The notes beneath the pieces are model-generated. The model worked only from the letters and a program-made list of their open reading frames with translations, made no database searches and was not told the DNA's origin. This document shows positions 26,440-63,494 of a stretch of 64,000 nucleotides of DNA, piece after piece. The position numbers were made by a program, and so were the translations under genes. The DNA is from Formosimonas sp. (GTDB lineage: Bacteria; Pseudomonadota; Gammaproteobacteria; Burkholderiales; Burkholderiaceae). The stretch's first letter is position 1; every line of letters begins with the position of its first letter. The DNA lies in NCBI GenBank assembly GCA_051650085.1, contig JBOFII010000021.1, positions 54,856-118,855 on the forward strand, in the 5' to 3' direction.

Positions 26440-27819
26440 TCAATTCAAAACAATCAAACGATTTTTAGCACGGGTAAATGCAACATAATGTAAGCGCTTA
26501 ATATTTTGATTATTGAGCTTTAAAAAGTCATTGGCATAAACAAATACATTATTAAACTCCAAACCTTTAGCACTGTGTATGGTCATGGCGATTTGATCAC
26601 ACAGTGGGTTATGTCTGAAAAAACCAGTCACCTCCTCATCTTTCAGCGACTCAATGAAATTATCAATTTGCTCACTTCGTAAAACGGGAAAAACGCTATT
26701 GAGAGCCTGCAAAGTCTGCGCGTTTGGGTTCTGATTAAAGACTCGTAATTTTGATATAAATGACACAGGGGTTGTTTCGTCGGTATAAACTGCATCATAA
26801 AAATGATACTCGCTAAATTTCTGCCCCAAAAGAGCCAAGCGATAAAGATTAGCAGTTAACTCAGGATTATCAGATTGTTCAACTAACTCAGGCGTTTTAA
26901 CCACTTTAATATGAGCGGGCAAAGATTCAAGCTGTCTATTGCTCTGCACAAGAACAGCGAATCCTTCCGTTTTTAATCTTTCATGGTCTGCGCTTTTATT
27001 TTCCAAAAAGTCAATCGGACAACGAAATACACCATGTTTTGTGTTTTCATCATAATCACCCTGCATGGGCAAATCCGTTTGATTTGCCCAAAAATCAATT
27101 CGCGCATTGCACCTATGATTTTTTAAGAGGTGAAAAACCCCACCAGACTGGATAAATCGTTGGTCATTACTCAAAGCATTAAATTTGTCTGGATCTGCAC
27201 CTCGAAACCCAAAAATAGTTTGACTTGAATCACCAATCAGCACGCACTCAAGCCCAAGCCCCATCAATTCATCAACAATATCGTATTGCCAATGGTTATT
27301 GTCTTGTGCTTCATCAATATAAACCGCATGAAACTTGGCTTGTAAATATCTTCTGAGCTGCGGTTTGCTTTTGATGAGTGATAAAGCATGTTCAAAAAGG
27401 AAATCATCATTGGCCTGAGCTGCAAATGGAATTTTTCCATTCTGTACAAAGTATGCGAGCCAATTATCTAAGCTGCTTTGTTTGTTCGAATACGTAAACG
27501 GTAATTTTCGCCCCCGAAACCGCTCATCAAAGCCTAACACGTGCCTTTTTAAAAAAACATGAAAGGTCGAAGATTCAATTTGCGAATGCACGCCGCCTTT
27601 AGCCTGCAATTTATTGCGTAAATCTTGAGCCGATTTATTGGTAAATGATATCAGCGCAATCGATTGCCAAGGCTGTATCCGCGCAGTGTGTCGAACACAA
27701 CGCTCAATAATCGTTGTCGACTTTCCCGATCCTGCGCACGCCGAAATAATGGCATTCCCCCATTTGGCAGGTTCAAAAATAGCCACTTGTTCAGAAGTCC
27801 ATTCAAAAGCTTTAATCAC
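26440..27819 (-). CDS. gajB: UvrD/PcrA-like superfamily 1 helicase, GajB-like (Gabija component B)
   Basis: The start was reassigned to the GTG at 27819, which is preceded by GGAG and overlaps the upstream stop by 8 nt. It has Walker A CAGSGKST, motif II VYIDEAQDN and motif VI YVAFTRAKNRL. Confidence 0.8.
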   Translation of the reverse strand: MIKAFEWTSEQVAIFEPAKWGNAIISACAGSGKSTTIIERCVRHTARIQPWQSIALISFTNKSAQDLRNKLQAKGGVHSQIESSTFHVFLKRHVLGFDERFRGRKLPFTYSNKQSSLDNWLAYFVQNGKIPFAAQANDDFLFEHALSLIKSKPQLRRYLQAKFHAVYIDEAQDNNHWQYDIVDELMGLGLECVLIGDSSQTIFGFRGADPDKFNALSNDQRFIQSGGVFHLLKNHRCNARIDFWANQTDLPMQGDYDENTKHGVFRCPIDFLENKSADHERLKTEGFAVLVQSNRQLESLPAHIKVVKTPELVEQSDNPELTANLYRLALLGQKFSEYHFYDAVYTDETTPVSFISKLRVFNQNPNAQTLQALNSVFPVLRSEQIDNFIESLKDEEVTGFFRHNPLCDQIAMTIHSAKGLEFNNVFVYANDFLKLNNQNIKRLHYVAFTRAKNRLIVLN

Positions 27820-29548
27820 GACTGATCTCCGCCAAACACTTGAATAACGGTGAATCAAAAATGTTGTCGATTTGCTGAGCAAACTCACCATTGACAATGG
27901 CTTCGTACATATTGTGCCATTTTTTGTTTTGCAACTTTTCAACCCACTTCGGGTCTTTTTGCAGAACTTCTGCTAGGTCATTTTCTAAATCAATTTTTGA
28001 TAGATAAATATGATGACTTTCAAATCTTGAAACAAAATTGTTGTCTGCTTGTGCATTATTTTCATATATATTAATTTTGGTAATGTCATTAAGTTCTGAT
28101 TTTGGCTTAGAATCTAGCAAAAATACTGGTGTCTCAGTGCTTGGAATCACTAAATTGAGCAACTCAATGCAGCGGTTAAGCCCAATATAACTGAACGTAT
28201 CATTGTTATTGGCTTTTATATCATTATCAGTTTTTACCATAACTTCAATACCTAAACCGCGCAAAATAGTCCAGTACTCTTTGAAGTGCGCGCCCATTAC
28301 ATGCATGACATAAATGCGTTGGCGCAGGTTTTGATTGTTTTTGAGCTTCTCATCTAATAAATAATCAAACAAAAGTTTTTCAGAAGGGCCTTCCACCAGC
28401 AACACCCTATCGACAAACAAACAGTGCGCCAAGTTTTCTAATAACTTTTGCTTCATGCTTGGGTAAGCGCTTGAAAGCTGCGCCACTGCCGACTGAGAGT
28501 TCGTTGTGTGTGATTTTGAATACAGCCGAATCAATTGTGCGGAGTCAGAAATATGATAAAAAAGTTGTGGTGAGTGCGTGGTTAAAAACACATAGGAAAT
28601 CGGGCTTTTCTCACCAAACAAAGCCAATGACAAATCGACCTGCGCAGATAAAAACAAATGGTTTTCAGGCTCCTCTATTAATAGCAACGGAATCTCACGT
28701 TGCCGCTGCGGATCTGATGATTGCGTCAATAAATGCGTAATCATCGCATACATAAGCTTTTTTTTGCGACCATCACCTGATGTTGGATACAGTTTTGCAT
28801 TGCCTTCATTTGGTGCTTTACCATAAAGAGCCAAGTGATTGTGAATACCGCCAACGCTTTGCTCTGAAGCGATTTCGATTTCGTATTGCTCGTCAAATAT
28901 TTTTAAACTACTGTTAATCGCCGATTGTATGGCATCAACAGAGGGTAATTCTTTAATTTGTTGATTAATTTGTTCAGTAAGTCCTTCGATTTTTTGCAAC
29001 GCACCACTGTCTTGTTGCCTCCAATTTTTTGAGTCATCGGACAGCAACTCCTTTTTAAGTTCAGAAAATGTACGCTCCAACTCAATGCCTGATGGAATGT
29101 AAACACAACGAAACAATTTGTCCAAAATAGTTTTACTGACGCCATAGCTGGGTATCGGCATCAGTGTTTCGGGATTGCTCCCCCACAGCAGTGTCAATAG
29201 TTTGTCTTCATTTAATTCTTGCTTGATACTCAATTGAACGTAAAATGCTGAGCCATCAGCATCAATTGCTTCACCTGCCGATGCTCTTAATTTATTTGTA
29301 TCAGCATCGTCCTCACTGGTATCAAAGCAGCATTCGATGATAATTTCATCTACGGTGTTATAAGCATGAAAATCAGAATCTAATATTTCTTGATTACGGA
29401 CACGAGGATCAAACAACATACGCAGGGCATGCATCATGTTGGACTTACCCACATCGTTCATGCCGAAAATGAGATTTTTATTTGCAATGTCGATGGTTAC
29501 ATCGGCAAAATTTCGGAAATTCTTTATCTTTAACTGGGCTAATTTCAT
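27812..29548 (-). CDS. gajA: OLD-family ATPase/Toprim nuclease, GajA-like (Gabija component A)
   Basis: 578 aa. N-terminal ABC-type ATPase features are Walker A GMNDVGKSN and Walker B LLLIEEPENHL. C-terminal Toprim features are VLLVEGPSEKLLF and the acidic cluster KTDNDIK. GGGAG lies before the ATG. Confidence 0.85.
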   Translation of the reverse strand: MKLAQLKIKNFRNFADVTIDIANKNLIFGMNDVGKSNMMHALRMLFDPRVRNQEILDSDFHAYNTVDEIIIECCFDTSEDDADTNKLRASAGEAIDADGSAFYVQLSIKQELNEDKLLTLLWGSNPETLMPIPSYGVSKTILDKLFRCVYIPSGIELERTFSELKKELLSDDSKNWRQQDSGALQKIEGLTEQINQQIKELPSVDAIQSAINSSLKIFDEQYEIEIASEQSVGGIHNHLALYGKAPNEGNAKLYPTSGDGRKKKLMYAMITHLLTQSSDPQRQREIPLLLIEEPENHLFLSAQVDLSLALFGEKSPISYVFLTTHSPQLFYHISDSAQLIRLYSKSHTTNSQSAVAQLSSAYPSMKQKLLENLAHCLFVDRVLLVEGPSEKLLFDYLLDEKLKNNQNLRQRIYVMHVMGAHFKEYWTILRGLGIEVMVKTDNDIKANNNDTFSYIGLNRCIELLNLVIPSTETPVFLLDSKPKSELNDITKINIYENNAQADNNFVSRFESHHIYLSKIDLENDLAEVLQKDPKWVEKLQNKKWHNMYEAIVNGEFAQQIDNIFDSPLFKCLAEISRD

Positions 29549-42843: not shown

Positions 42844-43638
42844 ATGCACAATTACCTTAACTTCATGCGTCACGTTTATGAACACGGCGCGGACAAAACC
42901 GACCGCACGGGCACGGGCACGCGCTCGGTGTTTGGTCATCAAATGCGGTTTGACCTGACGCAAGGCTTTCCGTTGGTCACCACCAAAAAAATTCATTTAA
43001 AATCAGTCATTTATGAATTATTGTGGTTTATCGCAGGCAACACCAACAACAATTGGCTCGCCGAGCGCGGCGTGCGGATTTGGAACGAATGGGCCGATGC
43101 AAACGGCGAACTCGGCCCGATTTATGGTCACCAATGGCGCAGCTGGCCCGACGGCCAAGGCGGTCACATCGACCAACTCGCGCAAGTCATCGAACAACTC
43201 AAAACCTCGCCAGACTCGCGCCGCATCATTGTCAGCGCGTGGAATGTCGCCGACCTACCGAACATGGCTCTGCCGCCCTGCCACGCGTTTTTTCAGTTTT
43301 ATGTCGCCAACGGCGAACTCTCGTGCCAGTTGTACCAACGCAGCGCGGATATTTTTCTCGGCGTGCCGTTCAATATCGCCTCTTACGCGCTATTGACCCA
43401 CATGGTCGCGCAGCAAACAGGCTTGATCGCCAAAGAGTTCATCTGGACAGGCGGCGACTGCCACCTGTACAACAACCATTTTGAACAAGTGCAAACGCAA
43501 CTCGCCCGCGAACCGCTGGCTTTGCCGCAACTGCTCATCAAACGCAAACCCGACTCGATTTTTGATTATGCGTTTGAGGATTTTGAGTTTGTGGATTATC
43601 AGCACCACGAGGCGATTAAGGCTTCGGTGGCGGTTTAA
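42844..43638 (+). CDS. thyA: Thymidylate synthase (ThyA type)
   Basis: 264 aa. Motifs are [23 protein letters not shown] and the C-terminal IKA.VAV. Confidence 0.97.
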
Positions 43639-43642
43639 AGCC

Positions 43643-43710
43643 CCGTCATTGCGGCCTTGCGCCGCAATCTCCTAAAAGTAGGAGATGCCGCGTCCAGCGC
43701 GGCATGACGG
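43643..43710. repeat. Composite structured repeat (Y-X type), best-preserved copy: three perfect hairpins enclosed by a 7-bp terminal inverted repeat
   Basis: ccgtcat | tgcggc-cttgc-gccgca | atctcct-aaaagt-aggagat | gccgcg-tccag-cgcggc | atgacgg. Confidence 0.85.
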
Positions 43711-43743
43711 AGATTTTCAACAATTAACACTTGGCTCAACACC

Positions 43744-44301
43744 ATGCTCACCGCGCACCACATCACCCTAACCCCCATCCAAACCGCACACTTCGCGCCG
43801 CTGTACGCGATTGTTGCGGCGCATCCTGAACTGTATCAATACACGACTTTGGGGCAAACCGAGGCCTCATTCCAAAAGTGGTTTGACCTTGCGCTCAAAG
43901 ATGGGGCGTTTGTGGTGTTGGACAACGCCAGCCACGCGCCGATTGGCAGCACGCGGCTGTACAACCTTAACCCCAAAGTGCCGCAGGCGAATCTGGGCTA
44001 CACGTGGTACGCGCCGCAATGCATCGGCACGGCGGTCAATCCTGAAGCCAAATTATTATTGCTCAGCCATGCGTTTGAAACACTCGGTTTGCACCGCGTC
44101 GGCTTTGAGGTGGACAGCCGCAATGCGCGTTCGTGCCAAGCCGTGCGCAAACTGGGCGCGAGTGCCGAGGGCGTGTTGCGCCAACACCGCCGTGGCGTGG
44201 CCGATGGTGTTTTGTGCGACACAAGTGTGTTCAGCATTTTGGACAGCGAGTGGCCAAGCGTGAAAGCAGGTTTACAGCGCAGAATCGGCGGCGCAACATG
44301 A
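43744..44301 (+). CDS. GNAT-family N-acetyltransferase (RimJ/RimL-like)
   Basis: 185 aa with the acetyl-CoA binding region LGLHRVGFEVDSRNARSCQAVRKLGA. Confidence 0.82.
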   Translation: MLTAHHITLTPIQTAHFAPLYAIVAAHPELYQYTTLGQTEASFQKWFDLALKDGAFVVLDNASHAPIGSTRLYNLNPKVPQANLGYTWYAPQCIGTAVNPEAKLLLLSHAFETLGLHRVGFEVDSRNARSCQAVRKLGASAEGVLRQHRRGVADGVLCDTSVFSILDSEWPSVKAGLQRRIGGAT

Positions 44302-45188
44302 GCCGCACACGAGCCAATTTATTGCTGTTGCTGTGCGCTTGCGTGTGGGGCGTGGCGTTTGTGCCGCAGGCCTTTGCTGCGCCGTATATTGGCGCGTTTG
44401 CGTTTACGGGGGCGCGGTTTTTGCTCGGCGCGTTGGTGATTTCGCCGCTGGTGTGGCGCGAATGGCGGCGTTTGGCGGTCAAGCCAAACGGACAAAATTG
44501 GCGACAAATCGCGCTGATGGGCGGCTTATTATTCGCGGGTGCGACCGTGCAGCAAATTGGCATGCAGTACACCAGCGTGACCAACGCAGGATTTTTGACG
44601 GGGCTTTATGTGCCAATGGTGCCGTTTTTGGCTTATTTTTTATACAAACGCCGTGCCAATTTGTGGGTTTGGCTGGCCGCGCTGACCTGCTTTGTCGGCA
44701 CGTGGCTGTTGACGGGCGCGGGGCAGATTTCGCTGAACTTGGGCGACTTGTGGGTTTTGGGTGCGGTCATTCCATTTGCGCTGCACGTGCTGTGGATTGG
44801 CGATTTGGCCGATAACCTCGGTGCGCCGCTGCTTGTCGCGTGGGGTCAATTTGTCGTGTGCGGGATTTTGGGGCTGGGATTTGCTGTGCCGCTGGAGTCG
44901 TTCAATTGGGGCAACCTGCCTGTTTTGCTCGCCCCGATGGCGTACATGAGCCTGATTTCAGTCGGCATCGGTTTTACAGGACAAGTCATCGCCCAGCAAT
45001 TTGCGCGGCCTGCCGAGGCGGCGATTATTTTGTCGTCTGAAAGCGTGTTCGCTGCGCTGGCAGGCGCAACTTTGCTGAACGAACGGCTGACTTTTACAGG
45101 TTACTTGGGCTGCGCCCTGATTTTTGCAGGGATTATCGCGGTGCAAATCATCCCCAGCAAACCCACGCCACTGATTGAACAGCACTGA
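44298..45188 (+). CDS. DMT-superfamily (EamA-like) transporter
   Basis: 296 aa from the ATG at 44298, overlapping the GNAT stop (ATGA). It has 10 TM segments in two EamA halves. Confidence 0.82.
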   Translation: MSRTRANLLLLLCACVWGVAFVPQAFAAPYIGAFAFTGARFLLGALVISPLVWREWRRLAVKPNGQNWRQIALMGGLLFAGATVQQIGMQYTSVTNAGFLTGLYVPMVPFLAYFLYKRRANLWVWLAALTCFVGTWLLTGAGQISLNLGDLWVLGAVIPFALHVLWIGDLADNLGAPLLVAWGQFVVCGILGLGFAVPLESFNWGNLPVLLAPMAYMSLISVGIGFTGQVIAQQFARPAEAAIILSSESVFAALAGATLLNERLTFTGYLGCALIFAGIIAVQIIPSKPTPLIEQH

Positions 45189-45190
45189 TA

Positions 45191-45218
45191 CGTCATTCCC
45201 GCCTACGCGGGAATGACG
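45191..45218. repeat. dRS3-like palindromic repeat (CGTCATTCCCGC-ctac-GCGGGAATGACG)
   Basis: A perfect 12-bp arm inverted repeat with an ATTCCC-N8-GGGAAT core. It starts 3 nt after the transporter stop. Confidence 0.85.
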
Positions 45219-45237
45219 CGTTTTAAACAAGGACATC

Positions 45238-45753
45238 ATGACCCGCTTAACCCTCATCGCCGCCGTCGCACGCAACCGCGCACTGGGCAAAGACAATCAA
45301 CTGCTCTGGCATTTGCCCAACGATTTGCAGTTTTTCAAACGCACCACGCTCAACCATCCGATTATCATGGGACGCAAAACTTATGAATCCATCGGGCGGC
45401 CATTGCCGCATCGGCTCAACATCATCATTTCGCGCCAATTGGGTTTGACCATTGACGGCTGCGTGGTCGTGCCCAGCCTAACTGCCGCGATTGAGTTGGC
45501 CGAGCAAATGAAGCACCAGCCCGCTGATATTAACCCCGAAATTTTCATCATCGGCGGTGGCGAAATCTACGCCGCCGCCCTGCCGCTCGCACAGCGTTTG
45601 GTGTTGACCGAGGTACATCGTGAGTTCGCCGCCGATGTGTTTTTCCCCGAATTTGACAAAACCCAATGGCAAGAAGTCTCGCGTGAAACCAACCACGATG
45701 CAGCCACAGGGTTGGATTATGATTTTGTAGACTACCGACGAGTCAACGCATGA
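45238..45753 (+). CDS. folA: Dihydrofolate reductase
   Basis: 171 aa. Motifs are LIAAVARNRALGKDNQLLW, IIMGRKTYESIG and FIIGGGEIY. Confidence 0.93.
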   Translation: MTRLTLIAAVARNRALGKDNQLLWHLPNDLQFFKRTTLNHPIIMGRKTYESIGRPLPHRLNIIISRQLGLTIDGCVVVPSLTAAIELAEQMKHQPADINPEIFIIGGGEIYAAALPLAQRLVLTEVHREFAADVFFPEFDKTQWQEVSRETNHDAATGLDYDFVDYRRVNA

Positions 45754-46598
45754 AGCCTAAAAAACTAGATAAATCAACTGCTTACGACGTGCGCCCCGAA
45801 CAATCGGTCGATTTACTCAAAGCCCTGCACATTTTGACCCACGACGGCAAAATGAACCAAGACAGCCGCCGCAAACTCAAGCAGGTGTATCACTTATTTC
45901 GCTTCATCGAGCCGCTGCTCGCCCAAGTTTGGGCCGACAACGGCCAATTGACCGTGGTCGATCACGGCGCGGGCAAGTCGTACCTTGGCTTTATTTTGTA
46001 CGATTTATTTTTCAAACCGCAGCAACTGCCCGCCAGTCACGCCATGATTTACGGCATCGAAACCCGCGAAGAGTTGGTCAAAACCTCACAAACCCTCGCC
46101 GCGCAAGCGGGTTTTGACGGCATGGCTTTTTTGAACTTATCGGTCGCCGACTCGATTACCTCCAGCCAATTGCCCGCACGGATTGACGTGGTCACCGCCC
46201 TGCACGCCTGCAACACCGCAACCGATGATGCGATTGAGTTTGCACTGGCCAAAAACGCCCAGCACATCGTGCTCGTGCCGTGCTGCCAAGCCGAAGTCGC
46301 ATCTGTATTGCGCAAAAACAAAAACCACGCCAGCCCGATAAGTGAAATGTGGCGCCACCCGATTCACACCCGCGAATTTGGCAGCCAACTCACCAACGTC
46401 TTGCGCTGCCTGCAACTTGAAGCGCACGGTTACAGCGTCACCGTCACCGAACTAGTCGGCTGGGAGCACTCGATGAAAAACGAGTTGATTGTTGCTTCTC
46501 ACAAAAATACGCGCAATAAAAAAGCCGCAGAGCGGCTAAATAAGGTTTTGACAGAGACAGGATTGCATGAACTGAGCAAACGATTTTTTGTGCCATAA
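45750..46598 (+). CDS. Class I SAM-dependent methyltransferase (Methyltransf_32-like), substrate unknown
   Basis: 282 aa, with VVDHGAGKSYLG (SAM motif I) and LHACNTATDDAI. The ATG overlaps the folA stop (ATGA). Confidence 0.65.
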   Translation: MKPKKLDKSTAYDVRPEQSVDLLKALHILTHDGKMNQDSRRKLKQVYHLFRFIEPLLAQVWADNGQLTVVDHGAGKSYLGFILYDLFFKPQQLPASHAMIYGIETREELVKTSQTLAAQAGFDGMAFLNLSVADSITSSQLPARIDVVTALHACNTATDDAIEFALAKNAQHIVLVPCCQAEVASVLRKNKNHASPISEMWRHPIHTREFGSQLTNVLRCLQLEAHGYSVTVTELVGWEHSMKNELIVASHKNTRNKKAAERLNKVLTETGLHELSKRFFVP

Positions 46599-46626
46599 AC
46601 ATTCCCATCTTGCTGTATGTTTGGCT

Positions 46627-47529
46627 TTATCGACTTCCACCAAAAGCGGCATTCAAGCTCGCATTAGAAAACTGCGCTTGTCCAGCCAACTCCTGTGCAG
46701 CAGGGCCATAAAAGTTCCCCGAAAACCCGCCAATTGCAGAACCTGAACGCGCAAGGCCAACAAAACCATTGCCCAAAACCAAACCATTCAGACGAAGGGC
46801 ATCACCAAAGCTTGCGTTGCTGCCGCTTGTTCCTGTGAGCACACGAGAACCAAAATTCACATTGACCGTCATCGGCACCGATGACATCGAAACGCTGCGT
46901 ATTGCATTACCCGTATAAGTTGCTCGACCACCTCGTGGCATTTGAGCGGTAGGCGTGACCGAGCCACCTGCAAAAAGCCCATTTGACACAGGCGTTACTG
47001 CTATAGTCGCGGGCCCGCAAGGCGTACTTGATGAAGCTGTGCAATCAATAGTTTCTGTGATATTGTTAACATTCCAAGCCCCGTAGCGAGAATAACTGCC
47101 ACCTGAATATGTGACCCGTCCAACAGCGAATTTATTAATGTTAAGCGCATTATTTTGTATTTGCACCACATCAGAACGACTCCCTACTGTTACCGTATTT
47201 ACCGCTTGAGGATTACTCGGAGCGGATAAGACATAACCACCTTGATACACAGGAGAGCCCATCATGAAGCCTCCTGGCGAAACAACGGTCTGGGCGTTCA
47301 AGCTAAATCTAGGTACTTGCCATGGAAAAATATAATCCTGCGTGTCCACGCCAGATGCGTTGTAAATGACGCTTGTACTGCCGTGATGTTGAACATGGTT
47401 TGTTGTATCCGTAATCAACACCGATGGGGGTGGGGTTACAGGGCCACTTACAATTTCTATTTCTTGTGCTTGCGCACGCCCCACAAATGCCACAGCAAGC
47501 GCAAGACCTAATAATTTAAAATGTTTCAT
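46627..47529 (-). CDS. Secreted protein with a C-terminal TbpB/hemophilin-type 8-stranded barrel: putative Slam-dependent cargo, with no lipobox
   Basis: The signal peptide is MKHFKLLGLALAVAFVGRAQA|QE and contains no Cys. The C-terminal ATYTGNAI...VNVNFGSRVLTGT...LNGLVLGNGFVG...GGFSGNFYGPAAQELAGQAQF...AAFGGSR follows the A.Y.G....V.F..k.l.G......G.I.GN.F.G....G.FYGP.A.E.AG.F...GAFGG pattern of Slam substrates. The start is taken at the ATG 7 nt after AGGA; an alternative lies at 47535. Confidence 0.72.
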   Translation of the reverse strand: MKHFKLLGLALAVAFVGRAQAQEIEIVSGPVTPPPSVLITDTTNHVQHHGSTSVIYNASGVDTQDYIFPWQVPRFSLNAQTVVSPGGFMMGSPVYQGGYVLSAPSNPQAVNTVTVGSRSDVVQIQNNALNINKFAVGRVTYSGGSYSRYGAWNVNNITETIDCTASSSTPCGPATIAVTPVSNGLFAGGSVTPTAQMPRGGRATYTGNAIRSVSMSSVPMTVNVNFGSRVLTGTSGSNASFGDALRLNGLVLGNGFVGLARSGSAIGGFSGNFYGPAAQELAGQAQFSNASLNAAFGGSR

Positions 47530-47745
47530 CGTCATTTCCTAACATGTACGTTCATTCAAATATTTCAAGGAATCTCTAAAGCTTGAAAACGCATTTTCTG
47601 TAGACTACGGCACAACTACAAAAATTTAGACTCACACTTGAAACCAGTATATGCCAACCTTCGCATGTATGCGAGCTTATACACATACACTTTTCATTAT
47701 AACAAATATAAAGAGTAAAATATTGATAAAACAAGCAGTTCAATT

Positions 47746-49158
47746 TTAAAATGTCTTATTTAATGTCAAATTAATTTGATTTTTTGAATATTTATATAGA
47801 GACAAATTGCTTTTAACTCGATTATGCTCAAACGATAATTTCGGCGATAGACCCAAAAAATCCACCTTATCATTCCAAAGTGTCAGGCCATATCCCACCT
47901 CTTGGTCATGCCGACGCGTATTAAACAAGCTAGGCGCGTCTTTAAACAGCCGATTGGCATAACTGACATCTAAGCGGGCGGTAAAATGCCATGGCAAATG
48001 TTGCACCAGCCCTGCTCGATAACCAACCCGTAAGGATGAGGCACTTTTTTCTTCTGTAAGGTCAAATAACGCATCAAGCCCGCCAAATAGGACACTCTTA
48101 TCGTTGATTTTATAAGACAACATGAGCGAAGCGAAGCTGTTGTGTCCGTCGAAATAGCGTGTTTGAGTATGCCGCAAACGGTTGTATTCATAAGTGACTG
48201 CACTTTGCCAATTGGGTGAAATCATGTATCGCCACTCAGCACGCAAGCCCAATGCTTTTGAATAAGCTTGATTCGCCAACCAGCGTTTTTGGTAAGTGGG
48301 CAAAAGCGCAAGGGCATGGACAGCACTTTGCCAGTGGTAACCGATATTCAACTGCGCAGATTGATCATCAGACTCATGCCAGCTCGGATAAGTTTTACCA
48401 AACACTCTAGCGCCCACGCTGAGCGACTGCTGGTCTGCAATGCGAAACTTTTGAGAAACATCCACCTTATAGTGCAAGCCATAGCCTTTTTGCGGCAAAC
48501 TCTCTGGTGTGCGCTCCAATACAAAAGGCCCTAAGACCACATATTTGTCCGTTGAGGCATGGTTAATATTGCTGTCCCAAACCCCACTCACACTCACATT
48601 CAACTGTGGTTTATATTTTTGATTCATTTGCTGCACAAAAGCACTGATGTTTTGCTTCACATTTGGCGGTGGATTGTCTTGTTGCACGCGCTCAAACTGT
48701 TCAATCGCCGAAACGTCTTGATTGTTTTCGGCCAATGTCGCAGCCAGCTCCAAACGCACCCGTGCCAACTCTGGGTATTGCTGCGCCAAACGCTGATAAC
48801 GCCTGATGGAATTTTCGTATTGACCGTGATAACGCTCCAGCCCTGCATGGGCAAACTCAACCAGCAGCGCATCATGTTCAGGCAACTGCGCATACAAACG
48901 CATCAAGCGTTCAACATGCGGCCATTGCCCCAAATCAACCAAGTCATTTAATGTTTGCCTGAGCTGTTCAGGCTGCGCGCGCCACTGTTCATCCAACCAG
49001 TCAGGCTGGGGCGTTGCCTGTGCATTTAAAGGTTGTGACACTTGTGGCGGTAAAACGGCCGCAGGAACGCTCTGAACTTGCGCTTGTGTGTGATGTGCCC
49101 ATAGCAAAAAAATCACACAAGGCGCATGAGCAGATAAAATTTTGAAAGGTAAATTCAT
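47746..49158 (-). CDS. Surface lipoprotein assembly modifier (Slam; type XI secretion outer-membrane translocon, TPR + DUF560 barrel)
   Basis: 470 aa. It has a signal peptide and an N-terminal TPR-like region (YENSIRRYQRLAQQYPELARVRLELAATLAENNQDVSAIEQFERV). The C-terminus is beta-rich with alternating hydrophobics, ending ...INLTLNKTF (terminal Phe). Confidence 0.78.
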   Translation of the reverse strand: MNLPFKILSAHAPCVIFLLWAHHTQAQVQSVPAAVLPPQVSQPLNAQATPQPDWLDEQWRAQPEQLRQTLNDLVDLGQWPHVERLMRLYAQLPEHDALLVEFAHAGLERYHGQYENSIRRYQRLAQQYPELARVRLELAATLAENNQDVSAIEQFERVQQDNPPPNVKQNISAFVQQMNQKYKPQLNVSVSGVWDSNINHASTDKYVVLGPFVLERTPESLPQKGYGLHYKVDVSQKFRIADQQSLSVGARVFGKTYPSWHESDDQSAQLNIGYHWQSAVHALALLPTYQKRWLANQAYSKALGLRAEWRYMISPNWQSAVTYEYNRLRHTQTRYFDGHNSFASLMLSYKINDKSVLFGGLDALFDLTEEKSASSLRVGYRAGLVQHLPWHFTARLDVSYANRLFKDAPSLFNTRRHDQEVGYGLTLWNDKVDFLGLSPKLSFEHNRVKSNLSLYKYSKNQINLTLNKTF

Positions 49159-49227
49159 GAATATTAAAGGGCTTAAAGTTTAAAGAATACGAGAAAAATA
49201 AGCATGCTCCCATGCCAAGAACCAGAG

Positions 49228-49539
49228 TTATCCATCAAACTTCATCACCCACTGTTCAATCGCCAAATACAAATGAGCCGCCTCCTGCCCTTTTGTCGTC
49301 AACTGATACAAACTTTCTTCTTTGACCACCATGTGATTGTCCATGGCTTGGCGCAAGGTTCGATTCAATTGTCCAGCGCTCATGAATGGGAAGTTGGCTT
49401 CTAATTCACTAAAACGCTTGTTGGCGTCTTGCAAACTCAAAATTATACCCGCCATCCAGCGGGATTTGAGTTGCTCCATGCCTGAGCTTAATTCGCATTG
49501 ATTGATATTACAGTCTTGTGAACGATTGATGTGAAGCAT
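49228..49539 (-). CDS. HxlR-family winged-helix transcriptional regulator
   Basis: 103 aa, with W...II..L.....RFSEL........S...L...L pattern. It is divergent from an SDR gene. Confidence 0.78.
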   Translation of the reverse strand: MLHINRSQDCNINQCELSSGMEQLKSRWMAGIILSLQDANKRFSELEANFPFMSAGQLNRTLRQAMDNHMVVKEESLYQLTTKGQEAAHLYLAIEQWVMKFDG

Positions 49540-49645
49540 TTAAACCCTCGCAATATTGATAGTATTTTTTTCAGGGCAAGCCGCCTACAATGCCCCCACC
49601 GAAACAATGAACGGTATTGTTTAATATTTTATAGGAATTTAGAAC

Positions 49646-50371
49646 ATGTCTAAAAAACTCGTTGTCATCACAGGCGCCAGCAGCGGCTTTGGTTTGGAAT
49701 TGGCCAAGGAATTTGCATCGCAAGGCTATCCCATGCTTTTATTGGCGCGTCGCACTGAAAATCTGGCCTCAATTGGTTTTAAAAACACCCTCATCAAATC
49801 AGTAGATGTCGCCGATTACGTGGCTTTTCAAAATGCCATTGCACAAGCCGAGGCTTTGTACGGCAAAACTGATCTTTTGGTCAATAACGCAGGCGTGATG
49901 TTGCTGGGCAGTTTATTGGACCAAAACCCGAACGAGTGGCAAACCATGCTCAACGTGAATGTCACGGGAGTTTTGAATGGCATTCAAATGGTATTGAAAG
50001 ACATGGTGGCGGCCAACACGGGGACGATTGTCAATATTTCGTCCATTGCTGGACGCAAAACCTTTGGCAACCATGCAGCGTATTGCGGCACCAAATTTGC
50101 CGTGCATGCGCTGACCGAAACGGTGCGCCAAGAAGTGGCCTCCAGCAATGTGCGCGTGCTCACGGTGGCGCCTGGCGCGGCCGAAACCGCCCTGTTGTCG
50201 CACACCACCTCGCAAACCATCATCGATGGCTACAACGAGTGGAAAGAAACCATGGGCGGAAAATCGCTCGACCCCAAACACATTGCCACGTCGGTGCGCT
50301 TCATGTATGAATTGCCACAAGAGGTGTCAATTCGTGAATTGGTGATTTCTGCCACCATGCAAGACGCTTAA
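49646..50371 (+). CDS. Short-chain dehydrogenase/reductase (SDR) family oxidoreductase
   Basis: 241 aa. Motifs are TGASSGFG, NNAG, and the catalytic S...YCGTK (YxxxK). Confidence 0.9.
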   Translation: MSKKLVVITGASSGFGLELAKEFASQGYPMLLLARRTENLASIGFKNTLIKSVDVADYVAFQNAIAQAEALYGKTDLLVNNAGVMLLGSLLDQNPNEWQTMLNVNVTGVLNGIQMVLKDMVAANTGTIVNISSIAGRKTFGNHAAYCGTKFAVHALTETVRQEVASSNVRVLTVAPGAAETALLSHTTSQTIIDGYNEWKETMGGKSLDPKHIATSVRFMYELPQEVSIRELVISATMQDA

Positions 50372-50859
50372 TCCCGCCGACTCGGCTCACTTTGATGCAA
50401 AAACGCGGTGAAAATATCGCGTGGCGGTGCGACGGATGCGCTGAACATAATCCGTCCCACCGCGCCGCGATGGTAGCCGCCATGCGTGATGATGTGCGCA
50501 AGCATTTCTCCGCGCGACATGCGCCCCGCCGCTTGGTCGGTGAACGTAAAAGTAATCTGCTCATTGAGCATATCTTCATTTAAACCGCCCACATACTGAA
50601 TATACCAATCGTCCAGTTCACTGACCGCTTGGCGCAAGTCGCTTAAAGTCGGGGTTTCTGGCGTGTTGGTTGCTTGATAAGCATGCGACTTGCCCTGTAA
50701 GTGCGCGGCAAAAATACAGTCCACCACATAAATGTGATTGAGCAAACGAGTGGCCGCATGCCGTTTTTCGGTTGACTTGACCTCTTCTAAAGCCACAAAC
50801 AGCTCTTGGTTCGCCCATGCTTTGTATTGAAACAAAGACACCCACAGATTTGCCGCCAT
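50368..50859 (-). CDS. DinB-family (damage-inducible, four-helix bundle) protein
   Basis: 163 aa from the ATG at 50859 (GGGGAG upstream). Features are the YKAWANQELF N-terminus and the HIITHGGYHRG His triad region. Confidence 0.78.
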   Translation of the reverse strand: MAANLWVSLFQYKAWANQELFVALEEVKSTEKRHAATRLLNHIYVVDCIFAAHLQGKSHAYQATNTPETPTLSDLRQAVSELDDWYIQYVGGLNEDMLNEQITFTFTDQAAGRMSRGEMLAHIITHGGYHRGAVGRIMFSASVAPPRDIFTAFLHQSEPSRRD

Positions 50860-54075: not shown

Positions 54076-54107
54076 AAAAAGCCCATCGACATGATGGGCT
54101 TTTTTTT
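54075..54107. terminator. Bidirectional rho-independent terminator between convergent lysA and the amidohydrolase gene
   Basis: An aaaaaaa-gcccatc-gacat-gatgggc-tttttttt structure with A and T runs on either side. Confidence 0.75.
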
Positions 54108-55353
54108 ACAACGCAACCGCTCGCTCCAGCACCGCATGCAACAACACATTACAACCTGCTTCAATGTGTTCAGGCTCTGCATCTTCGATTTCGTTGTGGC
54201 TAATGCCGTCTTTACAGGGGATGAAAATCATCCCCGTCGGGGCGAGTCGCGCCATATACACTGCGTCGTGCCCCGCCCCTGAGACAGCAGGCATATGGCT
54301 GTAACCGAGTCTTTGCGCGGCTTTTTCAACCGCTTGAACACAATCGGCATGAAAGGCTTGCGCGGGATACGCGCTGACGGGGGTGATGTCAATCGGCAAA
54401 CCTGTTTGCGCCGAAATTCTGGCGGCGACAGCGCGGATGTCGGCATCCATTTGTTCGCACAGCTCATCTGTGGCGTTGCGTAAATCAATGCTGAATTTGA
54501 CTTGCCCTGGAATCACGTTGCGGCTGTTGGGATGAACCTGCACCATACCGACCGTGCCGCGCCCGTGCGGCGGGTGGCGATATGCGCAGTCAACCACTTC
54601 TTGCATGAGTTGCGCAGCGGCTTGCAACGCGTCTTTACGCAGAGCCATGGGTGTGGGGCCAGCATGGGCTTCCATGCCTGAAACCACACAATCGTACCAG
54701 CGAATCCCCAAAACCCCTGTCACCACGCCGATGGTTTTGCCATGGTCTTCTAAAACGGGGCCTTGCTCAATATGCGCTTCAAAATACGCACCAATCGGGT
54801 GTTGCCCTGCAACTTCGTCGCCCAAGTAACCGATGCGAGCCAATTCGTCTTTAACGCTAACGCCCTGCGTGTCGGTCGCGGCATAGGCGTGTTCGAGCGA
54901 AAACGCATTGGCAAACACACCTGAGCCCATCATGACGGGTACAAAACGCGAGCCTTCTTCGTTAGTCCACCACGCCACTTCAATTGGGGCTTCAGTTTCA
55001 ATCTGATGGTCATTGAGCGTGCGCACCACTTCAAGCCCTGCCAAAACGCCATAGTTGCCATCAAATTTGCCGCCTGTCGGTTGGGTGTCGATGTGGCTGC
55101 CCATCATAATCGGTGGCAAGGCGTTGTTGCGCCCTGCGCGGCGCATGAAGCCGTTGCCGATTTGGTCGATGGTTACAGTCATGCCCGCTTCACGCGCCCA
55201 TTGGCTGACGAGGTCGCGCCCTTGTTTGTCCAAGTCTGTCAAGGCCAAGCGGCACACGCCGCCTTTGGCGGTTGCGCCAATTTGTGCCAAACGCATCAGT
55301 GAATCCCACAAACGTGAACCGTTGATGCGTAAGTTGTCGATATGCTCGCTCAT
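54106..55353 (-). CDS. M20-family Zn-dependent amidohydrolase (N-carbamoyl-beta-alanine / allantoate amidohydrolase type; beta-ureidopropionase role inferred)
   Basis: 415 aa from the ATG at 55353, overlapping the preA stop (ATGA). Motifs are GSHIDTQP.GGKFDG..GV and WTNEEGSRF. Confidence 0.82.
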   Translation of the reverse strand: MSEHIDNLRINGSRLWDSLMRLAQIGATAKGGVCRLALTDLDKQGRDLVSQWAREAGMTVTIDQIGNGFMRRAGRNNALPPIMMGSHIDTQPTGGKFDGNYGVLAGLEVVRTLNDHQIETEAPIEVAWWTNEEGSRFVPVMMGSGVFANAFSLEHAYAATDTQGVSVKDELARIGYLGDEVAGQHPIGAYFEAHIEQGPVLEDHGKTIGVVTGVLGIRWYDCVVSGMEAHAGPTPMALRKDALQAAAQLMQEVVDCAYRHPPHGRGTVGMVQVHPNSRNVIPGQVKFSIDLRNATDELCEQMDADIRAVAARISAQTGLPIDITPVSAYPAQAFHADCVQAVEKAAQRLGYSHMPAVSGAGHDAVYMARLAPTGMIFIPCKDGISHNEIEDAEPEHIEAGCNVLLHAVLERAVAL

Positions 55354-56663
55354 GAAGCCGCTCCAATCTGTTGCATGGGGTTGTTGGGATGGTCTATCCA
55401 TTTGAGATAACGCTCACTCACAGGCTTGCCTGTGCGTTGGTCGATTTCGCCCACAGCCAATGAGCGCAAACTAATGGCTTGCGGCACGGGACAAACCGAT
55501 ACGCACAAGTTGCAGCCCACACATTCTTCTTCTTTGATTTCAAACATCCGCACACCATTTTTGGACGCGCTGATGGCTTGATGCGAGGTGTCTTCGCAGA
55601 CCGCGTAGCAACGCCCACATTGGATGCAATGGTCTTGGTCAATCACGGCTTTATCGACGTGATTGAGGTTCAATTGCTGCCAGTCGGTGACGCTGGGCAC
55701 GGCTTTGCCGCGAAAATCGTCAATGCTGCGATAACCTTTGGTGTCGATAAAATGCGACAAACCATCGCACAACTCCTCAATGATTTTGAAACCATAAACC
55801 ATTGCGGCGGTGCACACCTGAACATTGCCGCAACCCATCGCAATGAACTCGGCCGCATCGCGCCAAGTGGTCACGCCGCCAATGCCCGAGATGGGCAAAC
55901 GCGCCGTCAACGGGTCACGAGCGATTTCGGCCACCATATTCAAGGCAATCGGTTTGACCGCCTCACCGCAATAGCCGCCGTGGCTGCCTTTGCCGCCTGT
56001 GTTGGGCGTCATCAGCATATGGTCTAAATCCACGCCCATAATCGAGTTGATGGTGTTGATTAAACTCACCGCGTCCGCACCGCCTTTGTGCGCCGCGCGA
56101 GCGGGCATACGAATGTCAGTGATGTTGGGCGTGAGTTTGACGATAACGGGCAGTTTAGAATAATGCTTGCACCATTCCGTGACCATTTGAATGTATTCAG
56201 GCACTTGGCCAACCGCCGCGCCCATGCCGCGCTCTGACATGCCGTGTGGGCAGCCAAAATTCAACTCAATCCCGTCGCAACCCGTGTCTTCGACCATCGG
56301 CAAAATATTTTTCCACGACGACTCCACGCACGGCACCATGATGGAGCAAATCACCGCGCGGTCAGACCAGTTGCGTTTGACACGTGCCATTTCTTCTAAA
56401 TTGGTGCGCAAAGGGCGGTCTGAAATCAACTCAATGTTGTTAAAACCAATCACGCGGCGGTCTTTGGCGTACAACGCCGAATAGCGCGGCCCATGCACAT
56501 TGACCACATGCGGGTCTTCGCCAACGGTTTTCCACACCACGCCGCCCCAGCCTGCCTCAAAGGCCCGTACGACGTTGACTTCTTTATCGGTTGGCGGCGC
56601 AGAAGCGAGCCAAAATGGATTGGGGCTTTTGATGCCCAAAAATGAAGTGGTTAAATCTGCCAT
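55350..56663 (-). CDS. preA: NAD-dependent dihydropyrimidine dehydrogenase subunit PreA (FMN / 2x[4Fe-4S])
   Basis: 437 aa with a DHOD-like TIM barrel (GCDGIELNFGCPHG) and C-terminal ferredoxin motifs CIQCGRCYAVC and CVGCNLCVSVCP. Confidence 0.9.
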   Translation of the reverse strand: MADLTTSFLGIKSPNPFWLASAPPTDKEVNVVRAFEAGWGGVVWKTVGEDPHVVNVHGPRYSALYAKDRRVIGFNNIELISDRPLRTNLEEMARVKRNWSDRAVICSIMVPCVESSWKNILPMVEDTGCDGIELNFGCPHGMSERGMGAAVGQVPEYIQMVTEWCKHYSKLPVIVKLTPNITDIRMPARAAHKGGADAVSLINTINSIMGVDLDHMLMTPNTGGKGSHGGYCGEAVKPIALNMVAEIARDPLTARLPISGIGGVTTWRDAAEFIAMGCGNVQVCTAAMVYGFKIIEELCDGLSHFIDTKGYRSIDDFRGKAVPSVTDWQQLNLNHVDKAVIDQDHCIQCGRCYAVCEDTSHQAISASKNGVRMFEIKEEECVGCNLCVSVCPVPQAISLRSLAVGEIDQRTGKPVSERYLKWIDHPNNPMQQIGAAS

Positions 56664-56675
56664 GTTGTGCTCCCG

Positions 56676-58016: not shown

Positions 58017-58032
58017 ACAATTTCCTTCACAA

Positions 58033-59487
<1,455 letters not shown>

Positions 59488-63268: not shown

Positions 63269-63494
63269 CACAACCTCCTAAGAAATTTGACTTTCAATAC
63301 GTATTAATACTTTTGGCAAATATACTATTTATTTATTTTTTTGCATATCAAAAATCAATTATGGGCGTATTTACAACACTTTTTTTGTGTGAACACTCAA
63401 GGTTGATGCAGCGAAAAAAGTGTCCATCTCACGCCCAACCCGCTCATAAAACGTTAAAATAACGCCTTTGTTCGATGTCACACGAAAGATATGT

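What the first reader, a model, noticed from the sequence alone, without database searches (positions are those of the whole stretch)
46627..49158. Stand-alone Slam (type XI secretion) translocon with a non-lipidated, hemophilin/TbpB-barrel cargo and no adjacent TonB-dependent receptor
Two co-directional genes sit in a stretch that looks AT-richer by eye.

- The upstream gene has the Slam architecture: a signal peptide, a TPR-like periplasmic region and a DUF560-like beta-barrel ending in Phe.
- The downstream gene ends with the diagnostic 8-stranded barrel motif of Slam substrates (ATYTG ... VNFG...L.G ... GN.F.G ... FYGP.A.ELAG.F ... AFGG).
- Its signal peptide (…VGRAQA|QE) has no lipobox cysteine. 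It should therefore be a secreted or soluble cargo, as in the Acinetobacter hemophilin HphA paradigm, and not a surface lipoprotein like TbpB/fHbp.
- The roughly 190-residue N-terminal handle has no motif I recognise. It contains an HVQHHG cluster and two Cys.
- No TonB-dependent receptor lies next to the pair, so the ligand and the function (haem, metal or something else) are open.
- The HxlR regulator immediately upstream on the same strand (69-bp gap) may or may not be linked.
Basis: partly seen in the sequence, partly recalled or inferred. Interest (0 to 1): 0.7.

Follow-up and report, generated by a model that had tools for sequence, protein, structure and literature searches.

The report
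Stand-alone Slam secretion pair, soluble cargo
Two neighbouring genes in a freshwater-type Burkholderiales genome encode a Slam (type 11) outer-membrane secretion pore and its probable non-lipidated cargo; this kind of system is already documented, and only the cargo's N-terminal part is new.

Summary
On the minus strand, 47746..49158 encodes a 470-aa Slam/T11SS outer-membrane protein (Pfam SlipAM 4e-63, TPR_Slam 5e-25, leader peptide, C-terminal Phe). 46627..47535 encodes a 302-aa protein whose last ~117 residues form the 8-stranded TbpB-type barrel of Slam cargo (Pfam 8e-11, AF2 pLDDT >95, Foldseek top hits all Slam cargo). Its leader ends in AQA|QE, with no Cys before residue 165, so it is a soluble-type cargo.

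No TonB-dependent receptor lies in the 64 kb. Both genes have low GC3 (0.39 and 0.46, against a median of 0.63), so the pair looks horizontally acquired.

An exhaustive search of 1.84 billion representative proteins matched only the barrel and part of the handle. Residues ~24-105 have no relative and could not be modelled.

The closest relatives are also TBDR-less pairs set among housekeeping genes, but with lipoprotein cargo and the order cargo then Slam. HxlR is not linked to the pair. It forms a conserved divergent pair with the SDR in Hydromonas duriensis, where no Slam is present.

Soluble T11SS cargo and TBDR-less loci are already published (Grossman 2021, 2025). Verdict: a new member of a known kind, ligand unknown, hemophilin membership not supported. 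Interest is modest.

The parts
47746..49158 (-). Slam / type 11 secretion outer-membrane protein, 470 aa (the public annotation starts at V40, giving 431 aa without a leader)
   Evidence: PF04575 4e-63 and PF24575 4.8e-25. 35-40% identical over the full length to Slams that sit next to TbpB_B_D cargo. C-terminal Phe is invariant in five homologues.
49081..49158 (-). Slam leader peptide (residues 1-26, MNLPFKILSAHAPCVIFLLWAHHTQA|QV)
   Evidence: Hydrophobic core by Kyte-Doolittle scan. Homologues have leaders at the same position. The cleavage site is inferred by reading.
48694..48990 (-). Periplasmic TPR domain of Slam (residues 57-155)
   Evidence: PF24575 TPR_Slam 4.8e-25, profile positions 6-104 of 104.
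47749..48606 (-). SlipAM/DUF560 beta-barrel of Slam (residues 185-470)
   Evidence: PF04575 4e-63, profile positions 2-288 of 288.
47536..47745 (-). 210-bp spacer between Slam and cargo, GC 0.32, with an extended -10 element TGTTATAAT at 47696-47704. Possibly the cargo's own promoter and a ~160-nt leader.
   Evidence: Sequence read directly. GC. No Rfam family. The fold is not unusually stable, z = -1.2. No convincing ORF. The promoter role is inferred.
46627..47535 (-). Cargo gene, 302 aa (300 aa from the second ATG, which has the better-placed AGGAA ribosome-binding site)
47467..47535 (-). Cargo signal peptide (residues 1-23), signal peptidase I type, no lipobox
   Evidence: AQA|QE site, and the first Cys is at residue 165. 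46 of 63 barrel relatives carry a lipobox-like motif at this position.
47221..47466 (-). Orphan N-terminal region of the cargo (residues 24-105). It contains a PVTPPPS linker and the cluster H47/H50/H51.
   Evidence: No hit in 1.84e9 representative proteins, in the PDB, in Pfam at E<=10 or in JGI metagenome contigs. AF2 pLDDT below 50.
46981..47220 (-). Canonical handle/pedestal beta-sheet (residues 106-185), with the YSRYGAW motif and a C165...C173 loop
   Evidence: Aligns with the handle of relatives. AF2 strands 135-155 have pLDDT 80-93. The disulfide is inferred.
46630..46980 (-). C-terminal 8-stranded TbpB-type barrel (residues 186-302), the presumed Slam targeting domain
   Evidence: PF01298 7.8e-11 and slam_lipo 76 bits. 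pLDDT above 95 with eight strands. Foldseek hits to HpuA, HphA, TbpB and fHbp at E 5e-10 to 3e-7.
46523..46537 (-). Terminator-like hairpin plus T-run downstream of the cargo stop codon, inside the 3' end of the convergent methyltransferase gene
   Evidence: Consensus scan. A weak match only.

Best explanation
**What it is**
- This is a horizontally acquired two-gene type 11 secretion (Slam) module in a Burkholderiales chromosome, close to Hydromonas.

**How it most likely works**
- Both proteins are exported by the Sec pathway.
- The 470-aa Slam is inserted into the outer membrane. Its TPR domain faces the periplasm.
- Signal peptidase I cleaves the 302-aa cargo, so the cargo is not lipid-anchored.
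- The cargo is kept unfolded in the periplasm, probably by Skp as shown for TbpB.
- Slam recognises the cargo through its C-terminal 8-stranded barrel and translocates it across the outer membrane.
- The cargo is then released, or stays loosely attached to the cell surface.
- Outside the cell, the handle binds a ligand. The handle consists of a canonical pedestal plus an ~80-residue N-terminal extension that has no relatives and carries a His47/His50/His51 cluster.
- The ligand is unknown.
- This Slam clade sits away from TonB-dependent receptors in every locus examined. The ligand is therefore more likely a surface, host or matrix partner, or a metal, than a haem cargo handed to an adjacent receptor.

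**Shown here**
- The domain architectures, the absence of a lipobox, the barrel fold, the absence of a TBDR in 64 kb, the foreign base composition and the context of relatives.

**Inferred**
- Slam-dependent secretion, release from the cell, the Skp step, the cargo's own promoter and any ligand.
For: **Slam and cargo identity**
- Slam domains are present over the full length of their profiles.
- The cargo barrel is supported by Pfam and NCBIfam, by AF2 and by Foldseek, where all top hits are proven Slam cargo.
- The signal peptide has no Cys.

**Context of relatives**
- The nearest Slam relatives are 35-40% identical. Each sits next to a TbpB_B_D cargo among housekeeping genes.
- None has a TBDR in up to 10 kb of flank, although two of the contigs are only 2-4 kb long. 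The loci are L001/L002, L083, L085-87 and L088-90.

**Signs of acquisition**
- GC3 is 0.39 and 0.46, against a median of 0.63.
- In a Hydromonas-like metagenome contig, a cargo-Slam cassette replaces a different gene between blocks that are syntenic with H. duriensis.

**Published mechanism**
- Slam acts as a translocon and Skp as a holdase (PMC9090332).
- Soluble signal-peptidase-I cargo is secreted by T11SS (PMC8406197; bioRxiv 10.1101/2023.03.29.534853).
Against: - Nothing here shows expression or secretion.
- The cargo has no orthologue, so purifying selection cannot be assessed.
- Slam lacks an obvious Shine-Dalgarno sequence, and the public annotation starts it at V40, without a leader.
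- Only 64 kb of the genome was visible, so a partner receptor elsewhere cannot be excluded.
- The closest relatives have the opposite gene order and lipidated cargo. This soluble variant could behave differently.
Confidence: 0.8

Rival explanations
1. It is a hemophilin/HphA-type haemophore or metallophore. The secreted cargo captures haem or a metal through the His cluster and hands it to a TonB-dependent receptor encoded elsewhere in the genome.
For: - It has a signal peptidase I leader and a single barrel, as in HphA/Hpl/HrpC (bioRxiv 10.1101/2023.03.29.534853; PMC8406197).
- The best PDB sequence hit is the Haemophilus haemolyticus haemophore 6om5, for the barrel only.
- It carries the cluster H47/H50/H51.
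Against: - HphA_C scores 19 bits against a cut-off of 31.
- There is no similarity to any hemophilin handle.
- No TBDR, TonB/ExbBD or haem oxygenase was found among the window ORFs that were checked.
- No Fur or Zur box scores better than background.
- Every related Slam locus examined lacks a TBDR.
Confidence: 0.15
2. It is a decaying or non-functional acquisition. The cargo descends from a surface lipoprotein that lost its lipobox, and it is no longer properly secreted or useful.
For: - 46 of 63 barrel relatives carry a lipobox-like motif.
- slam_lipo scores just under its cut-off, and the lipobox part of the profile is unmatched.
- The protein is a singleton in 15 billion proteins.
- The gene order is inverted relative to relatives, and there is a long AT-rich spacer.
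Against: - Both ORFs are intact.
- The leader has a canonical AXA site, not a degraded lipobox.
- About 7 other relatives also have signal-peptidase-I-like leaders.
- Barrel motifs that are nearly invariant in the family are kept.
Confidence: 0.07
3. HxlR, Slam and cargo form one regulated operon. HxlR senses an aldehyde or redox signal and controls secretion.
For: - The three genes are on the same strand, with a 69-bp gap between HxlR and Slam.
- HxlR GC3 is somewhat low, at 0.53.
Against: - HxlR plus the divergent SDR is conserved as a pair in Hydromonas duriensis, with no Slam or cargo.
- Nucleotide homology ends at the HxlR stop codon.
- A terminator-like hairpin lies at 49201-49216, between HxlR and Slam.
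- None of the related Slam loci has an HxlR gene.
Confidence: 0.1

Closest known systems
Soluble T11SS/Slam cargo ('TbpBBDsol'): hemophilin Hpl, HphA, HrpC, with their secretors HsmA/HrpB
   Same: - Sec leader cut by signal peptidase I.
- One N-terminal handle and one C-terminal 8-stranded barrel.
- The gene lies next to a DUF560/Slam gene.
- Foldseek matches to HphA 8gm3, 8gmm, 7re4 and to Hpl 6om5 at E ~1e-9 to 1e-7.
   Different: - There is no sequence match in the haem-binding clamp, and HphA_C is below threshold.
- No adjacent TBDR, TonB or haem genes, which are part of the described hphA/hrp locus organisation (bioRxiv 10.1101/2023.03.29.534853; PMC8406197).
- No Fur box.
Stand-alone lipoprotein cargo-Slam pairs in uncultured Burkholderiales and other metagenomic bacteria (L001/L002, L083, L085-87, L088-90)
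   Same: - Closest Slam (35-40% identity) and closest barrels (31-43% identity).
- A two-gene (in one case three-gene) module among housekeeping genes without a TBDR.
- Cassette-like placement.
   Different: - Those cargos have lipoboxes and short Gly/Ser/Pro/Thr linkers.
- Their gene order is cargo then Slam, with gaps of 38-130 bp.
- Here the order is Slam then cargo, with a 210-bp AT-rich spacer, no lipobox, and an ~80-residue hydrophobic, aromatic-containing N-terminal extension.
Slam-dependent surface lipoproteins without a receptor partner (fHbp, NilC with NilB, Pls with TepS, PmSLP)
   Same: - The T11SS cargo function is not TonB-dependent uptake; it is adhesion or immune evasion.
- The same C-terminal barrel. 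fHbp structures are among the Foldseek hits.
- The 'fHbp-like' class in PMC12282271 is mostly soluble (285 soluble, 54 lipidated).
   Different: - Those proteins come from animal-associated bacteria and have known host ligands.
- This organism's nearest relatives are freshwater or soil Burkholderiales.
- There is no N-terminal homology to any of them. That the NilB/NilC locus lacks a TBDR is from my own knowledge.
TbpB / LbpB bilobed transferrin and lactoferrin receptors
   Same: The barrel fold and the handle-barrel unit are shared. The TbpB C-lobe aligns at E 2e-5 by sequence and ~1e-9 by fold.
   Different: This protein has one lobe only, is not lipidated, and has no TbpA-type TBDR next to it.

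Membership tests
Slam / T11SS outer-membrane protein (DUF560, SlipAM) | C-terminal SlipAM/DUF560 beta-barrel domain | tested here: met
   PF04575 4e-63, 214 bits against a cut-off of 22, profile positions 2-288 of 288.
Slam / T11SS outer-membrane protein (DUF560, SlipAM) | N-terminal periplasmic TPR domain | tested here: met
   PF24575 TPR_Slam 4.8e-25, 88 bits against a cut-off of 35.
Slam / T11SS outer-membrane protein (DUF560, SlipAM) | Sec leader peptide and a terminal aromatic residue typical of outer-membrane barrels | tested here: met
   The 470-aa reading has a hydrophobic leader that aligns with the leaders of four homologues, and it ends in Phe, which is invariant. No SignalP run. 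The public annotation uses a later start.
Slam / T11SS outer-membrane protein (DUF560, SlipAM) | Adjacent gene for a cargo with a TbpB_B_D / lipoprotein-C barrel | tested here: met
   The cargo lies 210 bp downstream on the same strand.
Slam / T11SS outer-membrane protein (DUF560, SlipAM) | Required for translocation of the cargo across the outer membrane | not testable with these tools
   Needs co-expression and secretion assays.
Slam-dependent cargo (TbpBBD class) | C-terminal 8-stranded beta-barrel | tested here: met
   PF01298 43 bits against a cut-off of 26. AF2 gives eight strands with pLDDT above 95. Foldseek top 50 hits are all known cargo.
Slam-dependent surface lipoprotein (NCBIfam NF041636 slam_lipo) | Score above the curated cut-off, and a lipobox Cys | tested here: not met
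   76 bits against a cut-off of 80. Profile positions 1-32 are unmatched. No Cys before residue 165.
Hemophilin / HphA haemophores | HphA-type C-terminal domain above the Pfam threshold | tested here: not met
   PF22829 HphA_C 19.1 bits against a cut-off of 31.
Hemophilin / HphA haemophores | N-terminal haem-binding clamp with the conserved axial His (beta5-beta6 loop) | tested here: inconclusive
   No sequence similarity to any hemophilin handle. The structure of residues 24-130 is not predictable, pLDDT below 50. His47/50/51 exist but cannot be placed.
Hemophilin / HphA haemophores | Locus includes a cognate TonB-dependent receptor | tested here: not met
   No TBDR among any ORF of 578 aa or more in the 64-kb window. 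The rest of the genome was not visible.
Hemophilin / HphA haemophores | Binds haem | not testable with these tools
   Needs purified protein.
TbpB/LbpB bilobed receptors | Two handle-barrel lobes, lipidated, paired with TbpA/LbpA | tested here: not met
   A single TbpB_B_D stretch, 302 aa, no lipobox, no TBDR.

The most novel reading that the evidence does not exclude
The N-terminal ~80 residues (24-105), with the modified handle, form a previously unseen effector domain of a T11SS cargo. The cargo would be secreted in soluble form by a free-living, freshwater-type Burkholderiaceae. Its function would be independent of TonB, for example metal capture through His47/50/51 or binding to a surface or partner organism. 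This would extend type 11 secretion beyond the animal-associated nutrient and immune-evasion roles known so far.
Probability: 0.3. Interest if true: 0.5.

Novelty: new member of a known kind. Interest (0 to 1): 0.3.

Why it matters
- If the cargo is secreted, it adds a member with an unrelated N-terminal module to the type 11 secretion repertoire.
- It comes from an environmental betaproteobacterial lineage, where these systems have hardly been studied.
- It belongs to a small clade of Slam-cargo cassettes that always sit away from TonB-dependent receptors.
- That clade is a reasonable place to look for T11SS functions other than iron or haem piracy.
- It does not change how the system is understood. 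Soluble cargo, varied N-terminal effectors and horizontally moving T11SS loci are already in the literature.

Tried and rejected
**Searches for relatives of the handle**
1. The word-indexed homology search for the cargo found only the cargo itself. An exact look-up of its contig failed.
2. The exhaustive phmmer search over 1.84e9 representatives gave 65 hits, all to the barrel or part of the handle and none to residues 24-105.
3. The JGI metagenome scan gave the same result.
4. Pfam on the handle alone at E<=10 returned nothing. The PDB sequence search returned nothing credible.

**Structure prediction**
5. AF2 with a 45-sequence alignment resolved only the barrel and pedestal.
6. AF2 on the single sequence was useless, with mean pLDDT 39. 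No fold could therefore be assigned to the N-terminal part.

**Regulation**
7. The Fur and Zur box scan found no site better than background. The best site near the locus has 6 of 19 mismatches.
8. The Rfam search of 46400-49800 gave no hit. Folding of the spacer gave z = -1.2.

**Genomic context**
9. The genome-contig scan with Slam alone found nothing.
10. The scan with TldD identified the lineage but showed no synteny, so an 'empty site' could not be defined on that flank.
11. The idea that the nearby SDR is linked to Slam, because an SDR also neighbours the MAG Slam, was rejected. The two SDRs are only 32% identical.

**Other checks**
12. Internal duplication of the cargo N-terminus: none found.
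13. A second cargo copy in the window: none found.
14. Slam has no solved-structure relative by sequence.
Full report
**What is at the coordinates**

Two co-directional ORFs lie on the minus strand:
- 47746..49158, 470 aa.
- 46627..47535, 302 aa.

They are separated by a 210-bp spacer. A 103-aa ORF (49228..49539) lies 69 bp upstream on the same strand. A 241-aa ORF (49646..50371) is transcribed divergently from it.

**The upstream protein is a Slam/T11SS outer-membrane protein**
- Pfam SlipAM (PF04575) scores E = 4e-63 and covers profile positions 2-288 of 288.
- The Slam-specific TPR domain PF24575 scores E = 4.8e-25.
- An alignment with four homologues shows a hydrophobic leader in all of them and an invariant C-terminal Phe. 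This supports the 470-aa start over the 431-aa start in the public annotation, which has no leader.

**The downstream protein is a Slam-type cargo**
- TbpB_B_D (PF01298) scores 43 bits against a cut-off of 26, over residues 199-302. HpuA and FHBP_C give weaker hits.
- NCBIfam 'Slam-dependent surface lipoprotein' scores 76 bits against a cut-off of 80. Only profile positions 33-154 match, so the leader/lipobox part of the profile is missing.
- AlphaFold2 with a 45-sequence alignment models residues 186-301 as eight strands with pLDDT above 95.
- The 50 best Foldseek matches in the PDB are all proven Slam cargo: HpuA, HphA, hemophilin, TbpB, fHbp and LbpB, at E 5e-10 to 3e-7.
- The leader (M)TMKHFKLLGLALAVAFVGRAQA|QE has a classical AXA site. 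The first cysteine is residue 165.

By direct reading the protein is therefore a signal peptidase I substrate, not a lipoprotein. SignalP was not available.

**Composition and surroundings**
- GC3 is 0.386 for the cargo and 0.461 for Slam, against a median of 0.63 for the window's genes. HxlR is at 0.53 and the SDR at 0.60. The spacer has GC 0.32.
- None of the six ORFs of 578 aa or more in the 64 kb is a TonB-dependent receptor. They are RpoD, the ribonucleotide reductase (RNR) large subunit, IleRS, an M61 peptidase, GajA and an autotransporter-like protein.
- The immediate neighbours are housekeeping genes: thyA, a GNAT acetyltransferase, an EamA transporter, folA, a methyltransferase, a DinB-family protein and tldD.
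- A scan for Fur and Zur boxes found nothing better than background.
- Rfam found no RNA family in 46400-49800. The spacer does not fold unusually well, z = -1.2.
- The spacer carries an extended -10 element, TGTTATAAT, at 47696-47704. It could give the cargo its own promoter, but this is inference only.

**Organism**
- Housekeeping proteins of the window are singletons at 90% identity in a 15-billion-protein collection.
- TldD is 80% identical to Burkholderiaceae/Burkholderiales MAGs.
- The SDR is 88% and HxlR 68% identical to those of Hydromonas duriensis, a member of the Burkholderiaceae.
- The genome is therefore a sparsely sampled Burkholderiales close to Hydromonas. That Hydromonas is a freshwater genus is from my own knowledge.

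**HxlR is not part of the module**
- In H. duriensis the HxlR orthologue is divergently paired with the orthologous SDR. No Slam or cargo follows it.
- Nucleotide homology (71%) covers window 49233-50372 and stops at the HxlR stop codon.
- A terminator-like hairpin sits between HxlR and Slam.
- None of the related Slam loci has an HxlR gene.

**How unusual is the cargo?**
- The word-indexed search found only the protein itself.
- An exhaustive phmmer search of 1.84 billion representatives gave 65 hits at E<=1e-3. Nearly all align only from about residue 185 onwards. A few reach back to residues 105-165, and none reaches residues 24-105.
- The same holds for JGI metagenome contigs, the PDB and Pfam.
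- Pairwise alignment with the cargo of the nearest Slam relative covers residues 108-285. Residues ~106-185 are therefore the ordinary handle/pedestal (YSRYGAW motif), here with an inserted loop bracketed by Cys165 and Cys173.
- The part with no relatives is ~24-105. It has a Pro-rich start (PVTPPPS), then a segment rich in Val, Ile, Tyr, Phe and Trp that contains His47, His50 and His51.
- Its composition looks like folded beta structure, not like the Gly/Ser/Thr/Pro linkers seen in relatives. AF2 could not model it (pLDDT below 50; single-sequence run mean pLDDT 39).

**Relatives and their contexts**

The closest Slams are 35-40% identical. Every one of them lies beside a TbpB_B_D cargo among housekeeping genes, with no TBDR in the flanks available. 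The flanks reach up to 10 kb, but some contigs are only 2-4 kb long.
- L001/L002, a MAG labelled Sulfurovaceae.
- L083.
- L085-87.
- L088-90, with two tandem cargos.

In all of these the order is cargo then Slam, and the cargo is a lipoprotein.

L085 is syntenic at 72-75% nucleotide identity with H. duriensis on both sides of its cargo-Slam pair, and H. duriensis has a DUF2167 gene in that slot. The module therefore behaves as a cassette in this lineage.

Among 63 barrel relatives, 46 carry a lipobox-like motif (two further ones, P0011 and the truncated P0055, also appear to) and about 7 have signal-peptidase-I-like leaders. Non-lipidated versions are a minority but are not unique.

**Mechanism**

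Established steps for the family:
- Slam is an outer-membrane translocon, and Skp holds the cargo unfolded (PMC9090332).
- Soluble signal-peptidase-I cargos HrpC and HphA are secreted into the medium by their T11SS/Slam partners (PMC8406197; bioRxiv 10.1101/2023.03.29.534853).

Applied here, the cargo is exported by Sec, cleaved after AQA, translocated by the neighbouring Slam through its C-terminal barrel, and released. I put about 0.8 on this module-level model.

The ligand is open. The haemophore/metallophore reading gets about 0.15. The leader type and the His cluster support it. The sub-threshold HphA_C score (19 bits against 31), the lack of clamp similarity, the absence of a TBDR and of a Fur box, and the TBDR-less contexts of relatives count against it.

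**Comparison with what is known**

Grossman et al. 2021 defined 'TbpBBDsol' cargo: signal peptidase I leader, single barrel, secreted by TXISS-1B.

Grossman et al. 2025 (PMC12282271) reported:
- 141 cargo clusters, of which 33 are soluble.
- Variable N-terminal effector domains on a common pedestal and barrel.
- Signs of mobile islands.
- Co-occurrence of T11SS genes with one-carbon and nucleotide genes, dihydrofolate reductase included. Here folA and thyA lie 0.9-3 kb away.

Specific to this locus are the orphan N-terminal segment, the inverted gene order with a long AT-rich spacer, and the environmental Burkholderiales host.

**Verdict**

This is a new member of a known kind, with interest about 0.3. 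The most novel reading still open is a new TonB-independent effector domain secreted by T11SS in a free-living betaproteobacterium. I give it about 0.3 probability and 0.5 interest if true.

Noticed in passing
window 26440-29548 (-): A complete Gabija anti-phage pair: GajA 27812..29548 (PADLOC 1e-161) and GajB 26440..27942 (1e-81). GC3 is 0.36-0.39 against a window median of 0.63, so this is another acquired islet.
   Followed up: partly
window 61154-63271 (-): A 705-aa ORF with an ESPR extended signal peptide and a YadA stalk motif, like a trimeric autotransporter adhesin. GC3 is 0.42, also a compositional outlier.
   Followed up: no
window 49228-50371: The HxlR regulator and the divergent short-chain dehydrogenase form a conserved pair. 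They share 71% nucleotide identity with Hydromonas duriensis SNZE01000003 (L103 9128-10307), and the homology ends exactly at the HxlR stop codon.
   Followed up: yes
window 42844-45753 and 54106-60906: thyA and folA lie 0.9-3 kb from the cargo gene. A reductive pyrimidine-catabolism cluster lies a few kb further on; its genes look like those for PreT/PreA-type dehydrogenase subunits, an amidohydrolase, an M20 peptidase and a cytosine/purine permease. Grossman 2025 lists dihydrofolate reductase and one-carbon/purine metabolism among the functions that co-occur with T11SS genes.
   Followed up: no
L085 4973-7581 versus L103 1602-2917: A Hydromonas-like metagenome contig carries a lipoprotein cargo-Slam pair between two blocks that are 72-75% identical to H. 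duriensis. H. duriensis has a DUF2167 gene in that slot, which suggests cassette-like replacement.
   Followed up: partly
L088-L090 9119-12360: Two tandem TbpB_B_D lipoprotein genes (256 and 270 aa) precede a single Slam, between housekeeping genes. The same protein is indexed in 284 blocks of the assembly collection, so this organism is common in some sampled habitat.
   Followed up: no
protein P0004 (not in the window): A 4685-aa predicted protein that matches the cargo barrel in 12 separate stretches. Its summed TbpB_B_D score is 195 bits. It appears to be a giant multi-barrel protein.
   Followed up: partly
window 47746-49158: The public gene call for Slam is 431 aa and starts at GTG (V40), so it has no leader peptide. 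The 470-aa ATG start restores a leader that aligns with those of homologues. This is probably a start-codon mis-annotation.
   Followed up: yes
window 46627-47535, mature cargo: The mature protein has one Lys among 279 residues and is very rich in Gly, Ser, Asn, Val and Thr. The significance is unknown.
   Followed up: no
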